Source: Candidatus Thermosaccharophagus tengchongensis | GTDB lineage: Bacteria; Armatimonadota; Fervidibacteria; Fervidibacterales; Thermosaccharophagaceae | NCBI GenBank assembly: GCA_032161105.1 | Contig: JAVHTD010000014.1 | Direction: 5' to 3' (one strand) | DNA: 64,000 nucleotides | Shown here: piece after piece, positions 20,822 through 27,960 of the stretch | How positions within the stretch are numbered: position 1 is the stretch's first letter | Layout: each line of letters opens with the position of its first letter | Program-made: the position numbers and the translations under genes | The notes under the pieces: generated by a model | Databases searched by the model: none | Told to the model about the DNA's origin: nothing | What the model saw: the letters and a program-made list of their open reading frames with translations, nothing else

Positions 20822-23800
20822 GTGGTGCCAATAAGCTTAAAATTGCGCAACTTTATGAGCTATGGGGAGGATGTCCCGCCACTTGATTTTACAGCATTTG
20901 ACTTGGCGTGCCTTTCGGGTCAGAACGGGCATGGCAAATCCGCATTGCTTGATGCAATTACTTGGAGTTTGTGGGGTGAAGCAAGAAAGGCTCGTGGGCG
21001 CACAAGTCCCGATGAGGACCTTATTCGCATTGGCGCTCGCGATATGGAAGTTGAGTTTGAGTTTGAAGTTGGTGGAAATCGCTACCGAGTTATCAGGCGA
21101 TATTCGCGAAAGTATCACAGGCGGACAAGCCTTGAATTGCAAGTTTATTCTCCGAACGATAACCGGTGGGAGACTTTGACCGGGAAAACGCAGCACGAAA
21201 CTCAGGAGAAAATAAACTCAATTTTGCGCATGGATTATGAGACATTTATCGCATCTTCGTTCATTCTCCAAGGGCGCGCCGATGAATTCACAAGGAGGCC
21301 GCCAGGTGAGCGCAAAGAAATTCTGGCAAGCATACTCGGACTTGACCGTTATGAGCAACTCTCGGATTTGGCAAGGGAGCATCAGAAGAAATGCGCAGAT
21401 GAGGAGCAAATCCGCACGAAAGAACTTGAGGGCATAGACAGAGAGCTGGAAGAACTGCCGACACTGAAGAGGATGGCAGAGAAATTGGGGAAGGCATTGG
21501 AAGAGGTTAATGAAGAGTTACAAAGGGTTAAGAGCGAACTTAACAGCAAAAAGGACCGCTTGGCAACGCTTGAGGAAAGGAAGAGGCGTTTGGAGGACCT
21601 AAAAGAGCAAGCCAGAGGGGTTGCCAACAGCCTCAATGAAGCGATAAGGCAATATAAAACTTGGCATAAGCAGTATGAAGATTTGTTGAGCCTGTTGAGT
21701 AGGGAAAGCGAAATTGTGTCCAACTATTTGCGCTATCAGGATGCATTAAGGATGAACAACGAATTGACGGAAAAGTTGAACAAGCTTATGGAAGTTAAAG
21801 AAATGGCACAAAAAGTTGAACAAACAATTGAAAAGACCAAAAGTGAGTTGGAAAAAGAGTTAGCAGCTTCAAGAGAGAGGAGAAAAGAGCTGTTGCGCGA
21901 GGAAAATGAGGCAATGCAGTGGATTAACAGGCGGGCGGAAATTGAGAGAGGTTATGAGGAACTTCAAGCGCTTAGGCAGAAAGATGAGCACATGGAAGAG
22001 GTGAGGAAGAAAGATTCACAGCTGCGCGGGGTTGCTATGGAGATAGAGGTAAAAATTGATAGCGAGAGGCAGAAGCTTGAAATGCAACTCAACTCGGTTA
22101 GGGAGCGATACAAGGAGCGAGAATTGGTGGCGGGGCGAAGAAACGAGTATGAGGATGAGATTGCGAGAATAAATAAACAAATTAGCCAGCTACAGGAGGA
22201 CGAAAGGCAGTTAAGCGCACTTAGAAGCAGGATAGCCGATTGCGAGAGGCGTTTGGGTGAGCTTTCGGTTAGGCGGACACAACTTGAAAATGAGTTAAAG
22301 GAAACGAGGGCAAAGTTGAACCTGTTGGTTGAATCAACGGAACCGCGCTGTCCCGTTTGTAATTCACCGCTGGATGAAGCACGCAAGGGAATGCTCAAAG
22401 CCGAGTTTGAGAGCTCGTTAGGCAGCATACAGAGGGAACTTGAAGTTACTGTAGGTGAAATTGAGGAAGTAAAGGGGCAGCGTTCAGAGCTGCAATCACG
22501 ATGCGAAGAACTTGAAGAAAGGCTCAAAGATATGAGCGCACTTCAGGAGCAGTTGGCGAGAGTAAAGGCGAATTTGGAGGAAGCGAATAGAGCAGCTGAG
22601 GAATTGGAAAACTTGGCGAGGGAAATTGGCGAGCTTGAGCGGCGGCTTAAGGATGGCGACTTTGCGGCTGAATTGCGCGACCAATTGGGGGCAATTGAGG
22701 ATGAGTTGCGCCGACTCGGTTACGATGAAATAGCGCACTTGCAGGTTAAGAATGCCATAAAGGAAAAAAGCGTTTATGAGGTGCAAATGGAGCATCTTAA
22801 GCAAGCCGAAGAAAAGCTTAGGGAAGTAAGGGACAGGTTGAGGGAAGTTGAGGGGCGTATTTCTGGGCTTGAAATGAAGCTTTCCTCGGGTGATTTTGCT
22901 CACGATGAGCGAAAACAGCTTGAGGAGTTAAGGAGACAAATAAAGGAACTTGGCTATGACAAATCGGAACATGATAGGGTGCGCAAGTTGCAAAAGGATC
23001 TTGAAGGCTATGTCGGGTTATATCAGAGGTTGATGCAAGCCAAGGATGAGAAACCCAAATTGGAGAGCCAATTAGAGGGGCTGCGTCAGTCAATCAAAAA
23101 TGAGCGCAAAAGATACGAGGATTTGAGGGCGCAAATTGAAAGGCTTGGGAAAGAGGTTGAGGAAATCCCGCAAGTAAGGCGTTCTGTTGAGGTGCTGGAG
23201 AGAAACCTCGCAGAAATTGAGGAAAAACGCTCAAAATTGGAGCGTGAGAGGGGGGAAATTGAGGGCAGGATCTCAAGATGTAACGAGTTGCGCCAAAGGA
23301 GGGTGGAAATTGAGCAAGATTTGGAGCGAATACGCCACGAGAGGGATATATACGGCTTACTCGCACAGATATTTGGCAAGGATGGCATACAGGCGGTCAT
23401 CATCGGCAACGCAATTGATGAACTTGAGGAAGAGGCGAATAATCTCCTGAAGGAGCTCACGCATGGTAAAGCGAGCGTCGCATTTGAGCTGCAGCGTGAG
23501 ACAAAGGGCGGGGCTGTGAGGGAGACGCTTGATATAAAAGTGAGCGATGAGCTTGGCACGAGACCGTATGAGCTTTTCTCAGGCGGTGAAAGTTTTAGAA
23601 TTGACTTTGCGATAAGGGTTGCCTTGGCAAAGCTGCTTGCAAAGAGGGCTGGCACAAAGGTGCGCTTCCTCGTCATTGATGAGGGCTTTGGGTCACAGGA
23701 TAGCGACGGGTTGAAGCAGCTCGTTGAAGCAATTTACAGCATTAGGGGGGATTTTGACAAAATTTTGGTTGTCACTCACCTTGAGCACCTTAAGGACTCC

Positions 23801-23869
23801 TTCCCTGTAAGGATTGAAGTGACCAAAGACCCTCACATCGGCTCTCGGTTTGAAATCATTCATGCGTGA
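20822..23869 (+). CDS. sbcC: Nuclease SbcCD subunit C (Rad50-like SMC ATPase)
   Basis: LRNFMSY, Walker A GQNGHGKS, long coiled coil with CPVC zinc hook, FSGGE signature, VIDEGFG, VTH. Confidence 0.93.
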   Translation: MVPISLKLRNFMSYGEDVPPLDFTAFDLACLSGQNGHGKSALLDAITWSLWGEARKARGRTSPDEDLIRIGARDMEVEFEFEVGGNRYRVIRRYSRKYHRRTSLELQVYSPNDNRWETLTGKTQHETQEKINSILRMDYETFIASSFILQGRADEFTRRPPGERKEILASILGLDRYEQLSDLAREHQKKCADEEQIRTKELEGIDRELEELPTLKRMAEKLGKALEEVNEELQRVKSELNSKKDRLATLEERKRRLEDLKEQARGVANSLNEAIRQYKTWHKQYEDLLSLLSRESEIVSNYLRYQDALRMNNELTEKLNKLMEVKEMAQKVEQTIEKTKSELEKELAASRERRKELLREENEAMQWINRRAEIERGYEELQALRQKDEHMEEVRKKDSQLRGVAMEIEVKIDSERQKLEMQLNSVRERYKERELVAGRRNEYEDEIARINKQISQLQEDERQLSALRSRIADCERRLGELSVRRTQLENELKETRAKLNLLVESTEPRCPVCNSPLDEARKGMLKAEFESSLGSIQRELEVTVGEIEEVKGQRSELQSRCEELEERLKDMSALQEQLARVKANLEEANRAAEELENLAREIGELERRLKDGDFAAELRDQLGAIEDELRRLGYDEIAHLQVKNAIKEKSVYEVQMEHLKQAEEKLREVRDRLREVEGRISGLEMKLSSGDFAHDERKQLEELRRQIKELGYDKSEHDRVRKLQKDLEGYVGLYQRLMQAKDEKPKLESQLEGLRQSIKNERKRYEDLRAQIERLGKEVEEIPQVRRSVEVLERNLAEIEEKRSKLERERGEIEGRISRCNELRQRRVEIEQDLERIRHERDIYGLLAQIFGKDGIQAVIIGNAIDELEEEANNLLKELTHGKASVAFELQRETKGGAVRETLDIKVSDELGTRPYELFSGGESFRIDFAIRVALAKLLAKRAGTKVRFLVIDEGFGSQDSDGLKQLVEAIYSIRGDFDKILVVTHLEHLKDSFPVRIEVTKDPHIGSRFEIIHA

Positions 23870-23964
23870 ATGGCAGTCAGTCATATCGCGCCTATATGGG
23901 TCACACAATGGGACTTACCCATTTGTGATGAGTTCATAGAAAGGCTGAGCCAGATAGGTTCGGA

Positions 23965-24088
23965 TGGCACCATGAGGGTATCGGGGCTTTCTGGTTGGCA
24001 TTGAGCCGCCTCGGTGAGGGTGAAGGTCTTCTGGGGCGACGATGAGGAAGTAGATGTAGTCAAGGTCATGGCACTTGGCTGGGTTCAT
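23965..24088 (-). pseudogene. IS701-family transposase N-terminal remnant (frameshifted)
   Basis: Minus-strand ATG at 24088 after agagggg reads MNPAKCHDLDYIYFLIVA, then in another frame QKTFTLTEAAQCQPE. This matches the IS701 transposase N-terminus as I recall it (MNPPKCxDLDYIxFLIAAQKxFTxTEAARCQP). Confidence 0.7.
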
Positions 24089-24148
24089 CGGCAATCGCCC
24101 CTCTTGGCAGGGCGGTTCTTTGCATGCTATCGTTATAGCAAATTTGTT

Positions 24149-24173
24149 GAAGGGTGAGGCTCACGCCGAGCCG
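24149..24173. repeat. Second-family REP-like element (GGGAGGGCGAGGCTC..GCCGAGCC type), degenerate
   Basis: gaagggtgaggctcacgccgagccg; related to 62501-62596 and weakly to ~57206. Confidence 0.45.
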
Positions 24174-24259
24174 TGGAAAAGGGGATGATGAGGGGGGTGG
24201 TGGGCGGGTTGTTCAATGGTGCTTGCGATTGCTAAAATGCTCACAAGGAGGGGATAGGG

Positions 24260-26425
24260 ATGTTTTGTAGTCGTTGTTTCGTCCATGTTGTGGCAGGTCT
24301 TGGGGGCGCCTTGCGGCGCAAGTTTGCGGCGTGCATTGGAGTGTTGGTTGTATGTCTTTCATTGTTGGCTCTTGAAATCTCATGCCACAAACTTCCCCGG
24401 AAACGCCCCGTGCTCGTCTCCAAAACAGGGCGCACCGAGGAACGCCCTGTGCTCGTCCCCAAAACGGGGCACATCGGTCCAGTGAATAGCGTATCCTTCA
24501 GTCCAGACGGAAGGACGATAGCTTTGGGAAGCGGTGACGGAATGGTCATCCTTTGGGATACTGAAACGGGCGAGGTGAGGCGAATGTTGGAGGGACACAC
24601 CGATCCTGTGTATAGCGTATCCTTCAGTCCAGACGGAAGGACGATAGCTTCGGGAAGCTTTGACAAAACGGTCATTCTTTGGGATGCAGAAACTGGTAAG
24701 ATGAGGCGGAAGTTGAAGGGGCACACTGGTTCTGTGTTGAGCGTATCCTTCAGTCCGGATGGAAGGACGATAGCTTCGGGAAGCCGTGACGGAACGGTCA
24801 TTCTTTGGGATGCAGAAACTGGTAAGATGAGGCGGAAGTTGAAGGGGCACATCTGGCCGGTGAGGAGTCCGGTGAGGAGTGTAGCCTTTAGTCCAGATGG
24901 GAGGACGATAGCTTCGGGACACGGCAAAACGGTCATTCTTTGGGATGCAGAAACTGGTGAGGTGAGGCGGAAGTTGAAGGGACACACCGGTTGGGTGGAA
25001 AGCGTATCCTTTAGTCCGGATGGAAGGACGATAGCTTCGGGAAGCCGTGACGAAACGGTCATCCTTTGGGATGCTGAAACGGGTAAGATGAGGCGGAAGT
25101 TGGAGGGACACACCGATTGGGTGAATAGCGTATCCTTCAGTCCGGACGGAAGGACGATAGCTTCGGGAAGCGGTGACACCACGGTCATTCTTTGGGATGC
25201 AGAAACTGGCAAGGTGAAGTGGGAGTTAGAGGGACACATTGATTTTGTGGAAAGCGTATCCTTCAGTCCAGATGGAAGGACGATAGCGTCGGGAGGCGAT
25301 GACAGCACGGTCATCCTTTGGGATGCAGAAACAGGTGAGGTGAGGCGGAAGTTGAAGGGACACACCTGGGCGGTGGAAAGCGTATCCTTCAGTCCGGATG
25401 GAAGGACGATAGCTTCGGGAAGCCGTGACGAAACGGTCATCCTTTGGGATGCTGAAACGGGTAAGATGAGGCGGAAGTTGGAGGGGCACACCGATTGGGT
25501 GAGTAGCGTATCCTTTAGTCCGGATGGAAGGACGATAGCTTCGGGAAGCGGTGACGGAACGGTCATTCTTTGGGATGCAGAAACTGGTGAGATGAGGCGG
25601 GAGTTGGTGGGACACACCGATCCTGTGTTTAGCGTGTCCTTCAGTCCAGATGGAAGGATGATAGCTTCGGGAAGCTATGACAAAACGGTCATCCTTTGGG
25701 ATGCAGAAACTGGTGAGATGAGGCGGGAGTTGAAGGGGCACACCAGTGAAGTGAATAGCGTATCCTTCAGTCCGGACGGAAGGACGATAGCTTCGGGAAG
25801 CGGTGACGGAACGGTCATTCTTTGGGATGCAGAAACTGGTGAGATGAGGCGGAAGTTGGAGGGGCACACCTGGGGGGTGAGGAGCGTATCCTTCAGTCCA
25901 GACGGAAGGACAATAGCTTCGGGAAGCGGTGACGGAACGGTCATTCTTTGGGATGCAGAAACAGGCAAGATGAAGCGGAAGTTGGAGGAGCGCACCGTTT
26001 CTGTGGAAAGCGTATCCTTCAGTCCAGACGGAAGGACAATAGCTTCGGGAAGCGGTGACGGAACGGTCATTCTTTGGGATGCAGAAACAGGCAAGATGAG
26101 GCGGGTGTTGGAGGGGCACACCCGTTCTGTGAGGAGCGTATCCTTCAGTCCAAATGGAAGGACGATAGCTTCGGGAGGCTATGACGACACAGTTCGCCTG
26201 TGGGATGTGGCTACTGGCAGGGAAATTGCCACCTTCATCAGCTTTGATTCAGGTCAAGATTGGCTTGTTATCACTCCAGAAGGCTACTACAATGCCTCTC
26301 CAAATGGCGACAGGTTCGTTCGGTGGCTTGTAGGCAACAAACTCTATCCAGCGGAGAAATTTTCCGATCAGTTCAAGCGTCCAGACATTGTTGCGAAGGC
26401 GCTTAGGGGCGAGAAAATTCCGTAG
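24260..26425 (+). CDS. Exported WD40-repeat protein, 14 highly conserved repeats
   Basis: N-terminal hydrophobic segment ending ISC; 14 x GH...VxSVSFSPDGRTIASGSxDxTVILWD; C-terminal DWLVITPEGYYNAS...RPDIV tail. Confidence 0.92.
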   Translation: MFCSRCFVHVVAGLGGALRRKFAACIGVLVVCLSLLALEISCHKLPRKRPVLVSKTGRTEERPVLVPKTGHIGPVNSVSFSPDGRTIALGSGDGMVILWDTETGEVRRMLEGHTDPVYSVSFSPDGRTIASGSFDKTVILWDAETGKMRRKLKGHTGSVLSVSFSPDGRTIASGSRDGTVILWDAETGKMRRKLKGHIWPVRSPVRSVAFSPDGRTIASGHGKTVILWDAETGEVRRKLKGHTGWVESVSFSPDGRTIASGSRDETVILWDAETGKMRRKLEGHTDWVNSVSFSPDGRTIASGSGDTTVILWDAETGKVKWELEGHIDFVESVSFSPDGRTIASGGDDSTVILWDAETGEVRRKLKGHTWAVESVSFSPDGRTIASGSRDETVILWDAETGKMRRKLEGHTDWVSSVSFSPDGRTIASGSGDGTVILWDAETGEMRRELVGHTDPVFSVSFSPDGRMIASGSYDKTVILWDAETGEMRRELKGHTSEVNSVSFSPDGRTIASGSGDGTVILWDAETGEMRRKLEGHTWGVRSVSFSPDGRTIASGSGDGTVILWDAETGKMKRKLEERTVSVESVSFSPDGRTIASGSGDGTVILWDAETGKMRRVLEGHTRSVRSVSFSPNGRTIASGGYDDTVRLWDVATGREIATFISFDSGQDWLVITPEGYYNASPNGDRFVRWLVGNKLYPAEKFSDQFKRPDIVAKALRGEKIP
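24467..26206 (+). repeat. Intragenic tandem array of ~126-bp near-identical units
   Basis: agcgtatccttcagtccggatggaaggacgatagcttcgggaagc...ggtcattctttgggatgcagaaac recurs with very few synonymous differences. Confidence 0.95.
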
Positions 26426-26565
26426 GATTTTCCTTTCATGCCATAAAGCGGACACTGTCAATCGTGCCCATTGAGGTTGAATGTGTGGTGTTTGGTTCAA
26501 AATCAAAGTGATGCTTTGAACCTGCACTGAGTGGCTGTCTTGAGTGGTGAAATTGTGAGAGTCTC

Positions 26566-26686
26566 GTAGGGGCGCATGAAATGCGCCCGAAATGCGCATG
26601 AAATGCGCCCGAAATGCGCCCGAAAAAACGGGCGGGTTTCACCCGCCCCTACAGGATGGGTTTTTTGCGGCTAAAGCCGCTCCTAC
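26566..26686. repeat. GTAG-type REP cluster (BIME-like)
   Basis: GTAGgggcgcatgaaatgcgccc with internal gaaatgcgc reiterations; inverted gggcgggtttcacccgccccTAC; gcggctaaagccgctcCTAC. Lies between convergent genes. Confidence 0.85.
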
Positions 26687-27960
26687 AGTTCATCCGGGTG
26701 GGCAATCCTTCCGAGGACGGCAGAAGCAGCTGCTATTGCCGGGTTGGAAAGAAAGACCTCAGATTTTGGATGTCCCATGCGTCCGATGAAATTTCGGTTT
26801 GAGGTTGAGATGCACCTTTCACCGGATGCAAGCACACCCATGTATCCACCAAGGCATGGTCCACATGTCTCAGCTGCCACCACTGCGCCAGCTTCGGCAA
26901 ACACTTCAAGCAGTCCTTCGGCAAGTGCCATTTGCCAAATTTGGTGTGTCGCCGGGATGACGATCATCCTCACACTCGGATGGACTTTCTTGCCCTTGAT
27001 AACCCTTGCTGCGATGCGCAGGTCTTCAATCCTGCCATTTGTGCATGATCCGATAAAGACTTGGTCAATTGCAATGTTGTCCTTCACTGCCTCGGAGATG
27101 GTGTGCACATTTGAGGGCAGGTGAGGGTAGGCTACCATTGGCTCAAGCTGTGAACAGTCAAACTCAATCACCTGCGAGTATTGCGCATCCTCATCCGATG
27201 AATACACCTGCCACTTGTCTTGGCTATTAGGCGCCACCTTCATCAGGTAGTCCCGTGTGACTTCATCAAACGGCATGATGCCGTTCTTTGCACCGGCTTC
27301 AACAACCATGTTGGTGATGGTAAACCTGTCGGACATGGGTAATTGCTCAATAACTGGACCTGTAAACTCCATCGCCTTGTATAAAGCTCCATTTACACCG
27401 ATGCGCCCGATCGTTGCCAGTATGATGTCTTTGCCCATGACCCACTCGTTGAGCTTGCCGCAGTAAATTAACTTCATTGTCGCCGGAACGCGAAGCCATA
27501 TTTCACCGAGTGCCATAACTGCTGCAAGGTCTGTGCTCCCGATCCCTGTAGCGAAGCATGATAATGCGCCAGCTGTGCATGTGTGCGAATCGGCTCCAAC
27601 ATACACCATTCCGGGGAGTATCAATCCGCTGTCTGGGAGGAGCACATGCTCAATTCCGCCGCGACCGACCTCGTAATAGTGCTTAATGCGTTGTTCAACT
27701 GCGAACTGGCGCATGACTTTTGCCTGCTCTGCGGCGCTCACATCCTTGTTTGGAACATAGTGGCTTGCAACAAGCGCAATTCGCTCGGGGTCAAACACAT
27801 GCTCAACGCCAATCTTGCGAAACTCCCTTATCGCGAGCGGTGCCGTCACATCGTTGCCCATGCATAAGTCAACCTTAGCCATGACCAGTTGCCCCGGTTT
27901 AACATGCCTTTCGCCGGAGTGCGCTGCGAGTATCTTTTCGGTCATGGTCATCCCCATCAT
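26683..27960 (-). CDS. leuC: 3-isopropylmalate dehydratase large subunit
   Basis: MTMTEKILA, GADSHTCT, IGSCTNGR, CGPCLG, STSNRNFxGRMG. Confidence 0.93.
   Translation of the reverse strand: MMGMTMTEKILAAHSGERHVKPGQLVMAKVDLCMGNDVTAPLAIREFRKIGVEHVFDPERIALVASHYVPNKDVSAAEQAKVMRQFAVEQRIKHYYEVGRGGIEHVLLPDSGLILPGMVYVGADSHTCTAGALSCFATGIGSTDLAAVMALGEIWLRVPATMKLIYCGKLNEWVMGKDIILATIGRIGVNGALYKAMEFTGPVIEQLPMSDRFTITNMVVEAGAKNGIMPFDEVTRDYLMKVAPNSQDKWQVYSSDEDAQYSQVIEFDCSQLEPMVAYPHLPSNVHTISEAVKDNIAIDQVFIGSCTNGRIEDLRIAARVIKGKKVHPSVRMIVIPATHQIWQMALAEGLLEVFAEAGAVVAAETCGPCLGGYMGVLASGERCISTSNRNFIGRMGHPKSEVFLSNPAIAAASAVLGRIAHPDEL

What the first reader, a model, noticed from the sequence alone, without database searches (positions are those of the whole stretch)
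24260..26425. Exported WD40 double propeller with homogenised repeats and hypervariable binding positions: candidate diversifying recognition system
Seen: 14 units of ~126 bp nearly identical at DNA level, including silent sites. Amino-acid variation concentrates in the residues after GH (IGP/TDP/TGS/TGW/TDW/IDF/TWA/TSE/TWG/TRS), the residue in V-x-S (N/Y/L/R/E/S/F) and GS-x-D-x (G/F/R/D/Y). Established: this pattern of high internal conservation with variable top-face residues characterises fungal HNWD (HET-D/E-type) receptors that evolve by repeat shuffling. Inference: here the propeller follows a signal/TM segment with a possible lipobox and has no NACHT domain, so it may be a surface binder whose specificity is reshuffled by unequal recombination.
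Basis: partly seen in the sequence, partly recalled or inferred. Interest (0 to 1): 0.75.

Follow-up and report, generated by a model that had tools for sequence, protein, structure and literature searches.

The report
Reshuffled WD40 binder without effector domain
A hot-spring bacterium carries two copies of a gene for a 14-bladed binding protein whose contact surface appears to be constantly re-dealt by swapping pieces between repeats, the way fungal self/non-self receptors diversify, but it has lost the protease its relatives carry and its target is unknown.

Summary
The ORF (24260-26425, 721 aa) holds 14 WD40 units of 126 bp, 86% identical on average, so homogenised rather than near-identical. 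Variation sits at unit positions 4, 5, 7, 23 and 25, four of them the positively selected sites of fungal HNWD repeats; pN/pS is about 2.7-3.3 there and 0.3 elsewhere, and a confident model puts them in top-face loops. The genome has a second 14-unit copy. Eight metagenome copies carry 4-15 units in unrelated order; none shares a unit with the window although tails are 94-98% identical. All are short-read-type assemblies, known to garble such arrays, so exact orders are unproven. There is no lipobox. A Sec-type leader is plausible here, but 4 of 10 copies lack any. The protein is a truncated relative of a widespread signal peptide-WD40-tail-caspase family; the genome has no caspase, NACHT or reverse transcriptase match. 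Best reading: a stand-alone variable binder diversified by repeat recombination under selection. It works like an HNWD sensor domain but is not an NLR. Ligand unknown. The scan's earlier notes held nothing similar.

The parts
24260..26425 (+). ORF, 721 aa: leader, 14 WD40 units, C-terminal tail; no effector domain
24245..24251 (+). Shine-Dalgarno-like AAGGAGG, 8 nt before the ATG
   Evidence: read from the sequence
24260..24466 (+). Leader (aa 1-69): basic n-region, hydrophobic core aa 22-38 (24323-24373), possible signal peptidase I site near Ala37; Cys42 is not in a lipobox; short duplicated motif at aa 49-57 and 62-70, the second copy forming the first strand of the model
   Evidence: export inferred, no predictor run
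24467..26239 (+). Array of 14 units of 126 bp (aa 70-660), predicted double propeller; hypervariable unit positions 4, 5, 7, 23, 25
24857..24880 (+). 12-nt tandem duplication in unit 4; the same unit carries a 3-nt deletion and an Ala at position 10, a derived unit type found at index 10 of 14 in L035 and L040
26240..26425 (+). Small alpha/beta tail that in most relatives links the propellers to about 370-460 further residues ending in a caspase-type (C14) domain; here followed by a stop
26426..26565 (+). 3' non-coding stretch shared by the paralog and the metagenome copies
26566..26652 (.). REP-like GTAG-bounded hairpin repeat with an 11-nt minisatellite; dispersed in the genome; flanks the paralog on both sides (the label REP is recalled)
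23907..24101 (-). Internally deleted remnant of an IS701-family element (longer, frameshifted version upstream of the gene in L039 and L043)
20822..23869 (+). sbcC/Rad50-like gene, left border of the insertion
26683..27960 (-). leuC-like aconitase-family gene, right border; abuts sbcC with a 15-20 nt gap in two congeners

Best explanation
A stand-alone, variable binding protein. It descends from a widespread bacterial architecture (signal peptide, about 14 WD40 blades, a small tail domain, then a further region ending in a caspase-type protease) and has lost everything after the tail. Its blades are kept alike by frequent recombination within and between gene copies (shown as a pattern; unequal crossing-over versus gene conversion not separated). 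The same exchange re-deals two short variable boxes per blade (positions 4/5/7 and 23/25) that together form the top faces of the two propellers. Selection keeps the scaffold and frame intact and favours many residues at those five sites (shown statistically). The most likely use (inferred) is to bind and block or capture a fast-changing foreign protein, such as a phage or epibiont attachment protein or a competitor's secreted protein, in the periplasm or at the surface for leader-bearing copies and in the cytoplasm for leaderless ones.
For: pN/pS at the five sites 2.67 in the window gene, 2.80 in the paralog and 3.29 in 82 metagenome units (sites chosen on the window gene), 0.25-0.33 elsewhere. 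Nucleotide diversity at first and second positions of hot codons 0.54 versus 0.16 at 16 four-fold silent sites (p=8e-5). Silent variation among units with the same residue is not raised at hot codons (0.03-0.10 at four, 0.43 at one; range 0-0.54 elsewhere), so the excess is amino-acid specific. Opposite-face turns (positions 13-16, 32-35) keep one residue in 95-100% of 107 units. Model pLDDT 94.8 with hot sites in the d-a loop, start of strand a and b-c turn. Ten copies have 4-15 units; 112 of 113 internal units are distinct; window units match at best 94.4% among 82 metagenome units while tails are 94-98% identical; same-index units are no more alike than others (0.880 vs 0.880); derived marker units sit at different indices; sites within a box are linked, sites in different boxes are not (3 of 4 cross-box pairs p>0.17, one p=0.05). 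All 6 indel-bearing units are in frame and all ten arrays are open. 65 of 79 tail-bearing relatives have His and Cys caspase-type motifs after the tail and 69 of 79 a hydrophobic N-terminus. Six other homogenised sets with different blade consensus show the same five sites in their top six.
Against: No ligand, partner or expression evidence. The metagenome copies are short contigs of unknown assembly method; short-read assemblies of 126-bp WD40 arrays omit, add and chimerise repeats (PMC12222747, passages), which could by itself scramble order and unlink the boxes. A minimum-change count gives N/S near 1 inside the hot codons (0.7-1.4, not significant), although hot N still exceeds overall S 2.2-2.7-fold. 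Units are not independent, so all p-values overstate. The five sites are variable hot spots in highly repetitive WD40s generally (PMC5587647, passages), so their recurrence in other lineages is not proof of selection. Strand-d positions 36, 39, 40, 42, off the top face, also vary (major residue 46-73%). Loss of leader in 4 of 10 copies and a 4-unit copy (L033) fit decay as well as function. Recently amplified propellers often decay (PMC9218822, passages).
Confidence: 0.55

Rival explanations
1. Orphan of a sensor-protease, churning neutrally: after losing its caspase the gene is a recently amplified propeller carried among IS and REP remnants; recombination follows from repeat identity and the top-face sites vary only because they are unconstrained.
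For: Effector lost and none found in the genome; leader lost in 4 of 10 copies; a 4-unit copy exists; no operon partner, site empty in two congeners; N/S near 1 within hot codons by one count; amplification-and-decay described in PMC9218822.
Against: pN/pS 0.25-0.33 outside the hot sites, all ten arrays open, all indels in frame, 7 of 10 copies at 13-14 units; hot-site pN is about three times pS, which relaxation alone does not give; equally exposed opposite-face turns are invariant.
Confidence: 0.14
2. The sequence pattern is real but the polymorphism in number and order is mostly assembly artefact: a few fixed paralogs, chimerised by short-read assemblers.
For: PMC12222747 shows this failure for the same unit length. 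L036 has the window's upstream flank but a paralog-type leader and units that group with the paralog's. Only unit 1 of the window was checked against independent contigs.
Against: Longest exact repeat is 95 nt inside the window array and at most 68 nt between it and any other array. 15-nt boxes, too short to be made by mis-joining, are mostly not shared: 4 shared among 25 own and 46 other box-1 haplotypes, 7 among 21 and 41 for box 2. Contigs of three other studies show other letters at the same hot codons and the same derived unit starts.
Confidence: 0.1
3. A split receptor: the propeller is still the sensor of a signalling or killing system and acts in trans on an effector encoded elsewhere, docking through the conserved tail.
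For: The tail is kept at 94-98% identity in all copies and joins sensor to protease in most relatives; split NLR/effector pairs are known in bacteria (bioRxiv 10.1101/2020.01.06.895854, passages).
Against: No PF00656 match, no NACHT over cut-off, and only one weak match (E 7e-4) of relatives' post-tail regions in a 97%-complete genome; neighbours differ between loci and are housekeeping genes; the tail also ends unrelated architectures, so it may be a cap.
Confidence: 0.1
4. A diversified adhesin or glycan binder serving nutrition or attachment in mat communities rather than defence.
For: Leader and family-wide export signal; W/Y/F make up 17% of hot-site residues; a glycoside hydrolase with CBM9 lies in the window.
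Against: Leaderless copies; no anchor domain or lipobox; such rapid turnover between near-identical strains is more typical of conflict (inference).
Confidence: 0.09
5. Diversity-generating retroelement target: hot codons mutated by adenine-specific retrohoming.
For: Codons 4 and 23 are mostly NNT with all four bases at the first two places.
Against: No reverse transcriptase candidate in the genome; codon 5 never has A at its first base yet is hypervariable; no separate template copy, the unit matched only the two genes.
Confidence: 0.02

Closest known systems
Fungal HNWD/NWD receptors (Podospora HET-D, HET-E, HET-R); PMC1805685, PMC12222747
   Same: 126-bp WD40 units with high internal conservation, several paralogs sharing a repeat pool, variable repeat number, selected residue pairs in the d-a loop and b-c turn on the top face.
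   Different: Bacterial; no HET or NACHT domain; N-terminal Sec-type leader in half of the copies; conserved C-terminal tail; a fifth hot site (position 4); no known partner such as HET-C; no cell-death link shown.
WRAP domain of Nostoc punctiforme Npun_R6612 (PDB 2ymu) and highly repetitive prokaryotic WD40 proteins; PMC9218822, PMC5587647
   Same: Best sequence and fold match (E 9e-176; Foldseek rank 1, 50% identity); 14 homogenised blades in two propellers; variable hot-spot residues noted for the class.
   Different: WRAP is the C-terminal part of a STAND ATPase and has almost no silent changes; here silent divergence is about 0.21, no ATPase is present, and strain-level turnover of the array is seen.
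Bacterial WD40-caspase (peptidase C14) proteins with N-terminal signal peptide; class noted in PMC3501461
   Same: Leader, first-strand motif, about 14 blades and the tail are homologous (tail 45-60% identical).
   Different: The roughly 370-460 residues after the tail, including the caspase, are absent; most relatives have diverged blades (internal identity above 0.6 in 5 of 79 proteins and 2 of 77 genome loci).
Diversity-generating retroelements
   Same: Localised hypervariable codons on a binding surface.
   Different: No reverse transcriptase or template; variation not restricted to adenines.

Membership tests
HNWD/NWD NLR | NACHT (STAND) NTPase domain in the protein | tested here: not met
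   Leader, 14 units and tail fill the ORF; no PF05729 over cut-off in the genome
HNWD/NWD NLR | N-terminal effector domain (HET or other) | tested here: not met
   N-terminus is a 69-aa leader
HNWD/NWD NLR | WD40 units with high internal conservation | tested here: met
   86% nt, 81% aa mean identity
HNWD/NWD NLR | Diversifying selection at two residue pairs in the d-a loop and b-c turn | tested here: met
   Positions 5/7 and 23/25 plus 4; pN/pS 2.7-3.3; one conservative count gives N/S near 1 within those codons; no recombination-aware codon model run
HNWD/NWD NLR | Repeat exchange within and between paralogs, length polymorphism | tested here: inconclusive
   Strong pattern in 10 copies, but from short contigs of unknown method; long reads not available
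HNWD/NWD NLR | Triggers cell death on binding a partner | not testable with these tools
   No partner or effector identified
Highly repetitive prokaryotic WD40 / WRAP-like propellers | Consecutive blades above 60% pairwise identity forming closed propellers | tested here: met
Signal peptide-WD40-caspase (C14) family | Homologous tail after the last blade | tested here: met
Signal peptide-WD40-caspase (C14) family | Caspase domain with His/Cys dyad | tested here: not met
   Stop right after the tail in the window, paralog and 8 of 9 close metagenome loci (the ninth ends in the tail); no PF00656 in genome
Signal peptide-WD40-caspase (C14) family | Sec signal peptide | tested here: inconclusive
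   Hydrophobic core and Ala-type site in 5 of 10 copies including the window, none in 4, truncated in 1; no predictor available
Bacterial lipoprotein | Lipobox before a Cys | tested here: not met
   0 of 10 copies match two recalled patterns; the Cys segment is in 2 of 10 copies and has low contig depth in three other studies
Diversity-generating retroelement | Reverse transcriptase and template repeat; adenine-specific change | tested here: not met
   genome 97.4% complete

The most novel reading that the evidence does not exclude
A bacterial recombinational binder repertoire: two or three chromosomal loci share one pool of WD40 half-blades and re-deal them so fast that strains 98-99% identical in flanks share no blade, producing effector-free, antibody-like neutralising proteins in exported and cytoplasmic forms; the same design arose independently at least once more from the WD40-caspase family (L046-type loci), making it a recurrent, undescribed class of extracytoplasmic variable defence proteins.
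Probability: 0.3. Interest if true: 0.8.

Novelty: new variant of a known kind. Interest (0 to 1): 0.55.

Why it matters
That bacterial repeats with high internal conservation diversify like fungal NLR sensors was proposed as a possibility (bioRxiv 10.1101/2020.01.06.895854, passages), and variable hot spots in highly repetitive WD40s were noted (PMC5587647). Here the full signature is visible at strain level in a bacterium: purifying selection on the scaffold, excess replacement at the HNWD-equivalent sites, and turnover of the whole array. It occurs outside the NLR architecture, in a protein with an export leader and no effector. This makes the proposal directly testable with long reads and allele-specific pull-downs. 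It also points to the poorly studied signal peptide-WD40-caspase family as variable extracytoplasmic sensors, and offers a natural, probably thermostable scaffold with five tunable positions per blade.

Tried and rejected
DGR origin rejected. Lipoprotein rejected. A twin-arginine reading of the leader was dropped because the two arginines occur only in the window copy. Caspase, NACHT and intact IS701 searches of the genome found nothing over cut-off; the genome is 97.4% complete, so absence is not proven. PADLOC gave only a WD40 stretch of one large model. IMG/VR gave one 20-residue match, not a homolog of the tail. ESM Atlas hits for the tail were all under 0.9 and unnamed. Exact look-up of 6 protein versions found none. 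A search with residues 1-110 returned generic WD40 proteins only. Promoter and terminator scan was at chance level (2 vs 1.3, 4 vs 2.8). No RNA holder was listed, which says nothing on expression; rows with small shares were not used. The unit tree was poorly resolved (3 of 46 branches starred) and is used only descriptively. Four-gamete failures were frequent at all distances including under 10 nt, so they do not separate recombination from recurrent mutation. Three look-ups of earlier scan notes gave four unrelated WD40 notes and two blanks. Passages of PMC6344855, PMC8195603 and PMC3482391 did not describe this architecture; the last states that propellers had not been found among polymorphic-toxin immunity proteins. 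The host lineage was not determined. No complex prediction was run, as no partner is claimed.
Full report
Observation. The window has one open frame at 24260-26425 (+), 721 aa, with 14 WD40 units of 42 aa; Tandem Repeats Finder gives period 126, 13.5 copies, 84% matches. Unit 4 has a 12-nt duplication and a 3-nt deletion, both in frame. Among the 12 internal indel-free units mean nucleotide identity is 0.862 (0.80-0.96): 0.913 outside five hot codons and 0.482 within them; amino-acid identity is 0.889 and 0.197. Silent sites differ at about 0.21 per pair. The array is homogenised, but 'nearly identical' is too strong.

Structure. AlphaFold2 on a 59-sequence alignment gave mean pLDDT 94.8, pTM 0.81. 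Strands fall at unit positions 6-11 (a), 17-22 (b), 26-31 (c) and 37-42 (d), so 4 and 5 lie in the d-a loop, 7 at the start of strand a, and 23 and 25 in the b-c turn. I had secondary structure only, no coordinates; assignment to the top face rests on WD40 topology as described in Paoletti 2007 (PMC1805685, passages), where the four positively selected codons are two pairs flanking a conserved residue in these same two loops. Equating them with 5/7 and 23/25 here is my inference from that description. The best solved match is the 14-blade repetitive propeller 2ymu by sequence (E 9e-176) and fold.

Selection. With sites chosen on the window gene, pN at hot codons over pS across the unit is 2.67 (window, 12 units), 2.80 (paralog, 13 units) and 3.29 (82 metagenome units); elsewhere pN/pS is 0.25-0.33 (bootstrap over codons 1.8-5.5, units not independent; 6 of 123 units with indels and the terminal units left out). 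Diversity at first and second positions of hot codons is 0.54 against 0.16 at 16 four-fold sites. A minimum-change count agrees overall (2.2-2.7-fold) but gives N/S of 0.7-1.4 inside the hot codons; that count prefers silent paths, and among units with the same residue the codon differs no more at hot sites than elsewhere, so local hypermutation is not indicated. Opposite-face turns keep one residue in 95-100% of 107 units, while strand-d positions 36, 39, 40 and 42 vary moderately. Six other homogenised sets, picked for high internal identity from the 77 metagenome and 77 genome loci, have all five sites among their six most variable of 30. These sites are generic hot spots of highly repetitive WD40s (PMC5587647, passages), so this shows recurrence, not selection.

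Copies and reshuffling. The genome holds a second gene (G000:C19, L001:7494-9587) with 14 units, a related leader, a 96% identical tail and the same 3' flank; 19 of 25 internal units have their nearest neighbour in their own gene. A metagenome scan with the last 81 residues returned 77 loci, 9 at 91-98% identity and the rest at most 61%. Six of the nine share one assembly prefix, two a second, one a third. Eight hold arrays, of 4, 13, 14, 13, 15, 13, 14 and 9 units. Over the ten copies 112 of 113 internal units are distinct in DNA. The window's units match at best 94.4% among 82 metagenome units, whereas tails are 94-98% identical. L036 has the window's upstream flank (99.1% over 331 nt) and a 98.0% identical tail, yet 13 units with best matches of 87-93%; its leader and several units resemble the paralog, which is either conversion between loci or an assembly chimera. 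L034 and L035 share both flanks and differ in number and order. Middle units at the same index are no more alike than others (0.880 versus 0.880). Derived unit types sit at different indices, for example the deletion-bearing type at 4 of 14 in the window and 10 of 14 in L035 and L040. Residues within box 1 (4, 5, 7) and within box 2 (23, 25) are associated; across boxes they mostly are not, as expected if half-units are exchanged.

Assembly caveat. Short-read assemblies of 126-bp WD40 arrays omit, add and chimerise repeats (PMC12222747, passages). Exact orders here are therefore unproven. Three points limit the artefact. The longest exact repeat in the window array is 95 nt, and at most 68 nt is shared with any other array. 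Fifteen-nt boxes are mostly private: 4 shared among 25 own and 46 other box-1 haplotypes, 7 among 21 and 41 for box 2. On 23300-24595, contigs of run X1 (possibly the source) match the window with no difference through unit 1, while runs X2, X3 and X5 of three other studies are near-identical in sbcC yet show other letters at codons 3, 5, 7, 23 and 25. The four runs laid are hot-spring metagenomes.

Leader. Two recalled lipobox patterns match 0 of 10 copies. Five copies, including the window, have a hydrophobic core and an Ala-type cleavage site; four start directly at the first strand with no hydrophobic segment; one is truncated. The Cys-bearing segment is in 2 of 10 copies, and its contig depth drops to 10, 3.5 and 44 from 363, 137 and 267 in the bin before in X2, X3 and X5 (contig depth is a rough measure). 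Export of this copy by Sec is a reasonable inference, not a family constant.

Origin. Of 120 listed relatives of the C-terminal region, 79 match the tail; 69 of 79 have a hydrophobic N-terminus, 65 of 79 have His and Cys caspase-type motifs after the tail, and 6 end within 30 residues. Two tested proteins match a caspase model below its cut-off. In 77 genome loci, titled mainly as Deltaproteobacteria and Nitrospirae bins, 63 continue at least 300 residues past the tail and 3 stop. WD40 is the commonest partner domain of prokaryotic caspase homologs, many with a probable signal peptide (PMC3501461, passages). The window gene is thus a truncated relative. The genome (97.4% complete) has no PF00656 match, no reverse transcriptase candidate and no NACHT over cut-off. 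A separate lineage (L046, L054, L069, L071, L078, L087, L088) lacks both leader and caspase, has homogenised blades and varies in unit number; L041 has homogenised blades with leader and C-terminal region intact.

Locus. In two of three congeners sbcC abuts leuC with 15-20 nt between them, against 2.8 kb here; the third has an IS982 fragment after sbcC; none of the three matched the tail. The insertion starts with an IS701 remnant and ends with a dispersed REP-like repeat. Close copies show at least three upstream contexts, one of which is empty in this genome. L035 carries an inverted copy of the IS end downstream of the gene, hinting at capture between IS701 ends; no intact IS701 transposase was found. 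How the gene moved is not established.

Mechanism. Shown: homogenised blades, a constrained scaffold, excess replacement at five top-face-loop sites, two paralogs, loss of the protease. Shown subject to assembly: turnover of number and order. Inferred: recombination between units as the engine, export, and a foreign, fast-evolving ligand that is neutralised by binding. I put this at 0.55; neutral orphan 0.14, mostly artefact 0.10, split receptor 0.10, adhesin or lectin 0.09, retroelement 0.02.

Novelty. The evolutionary regime is known from fungal HNWD genes; highly repetitive bacterial propellers are known (PMC9218822: abstract, introduction, one results part and passages); their diversification in bacteria was proposed for NLRs (bioRxiv 10.1101/2020.01.06.895854, passages). 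Seven literature searches listed no paper on strain-level reshuffling in a leader-bearing, effector-free bacterial WD40; the library lacks most subscription journals, and no supplements were read. It works like an HNWD sensor domain but fails NLR membership. Verdict: new variant of a known kind, interest 0.55.

Noticed in passing
window 26566-26652; G000 C19:51317-51381, C19:53727-53802 and others: Dispersed GTAG-bounded hairpin repeat with an 11-nt minisatellite; 14 left halves and 9 right halves on the + strand of the genome. It flanks both WD40 genes. No associated transposase was sought.
   Followed up: partly
L037:2432-2950 versus G000 C19:53587-57110: L037 joins the WD40 gene's 3' flank to sequence beyond the Mg-translocating P-type ATPase gene, which lies between two such repeats in G000 and L038; the ATPase may be a variable insert.
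   Followed up: no
L087, L088: Two complete propeller-plus-tail modules fused in one frame (over 20 units), in the leaderless, caspase-less lineage.
   Followed up: no
L006, L007, L008, L010, L013: In genomes of the same order the tail ends a different protein: leader, a CxxCH-containing domain, a diverged WD40 propeller, tail, stop.
   Followed up: no
G000 C21:54855-55163; L039:1-720; L043:1-490: Site that is followed by an IS701 remnant and the WD40 gene in L039 and L043 but not in G000.
   Followed up: partly
window 23940-24238: In X2, X3 and X5 the contig depth of this upstream stretch is about a third to a half of that in sbcC, hinting that only part of the population has this version (depth is a rough measure).
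   Followed up: no
G000 C13:31985-35400: Short WD40-like matches beside what looks like a frameshifted Ser/Thr kinase fragment (the kinase label is recalled, not tested).
   Followed up: no
L025 (G002:C28:1-3267): A congener has a 711-aa WD40 frame with 37-47% identity to the units and no match to the tail.
   Followed up: no
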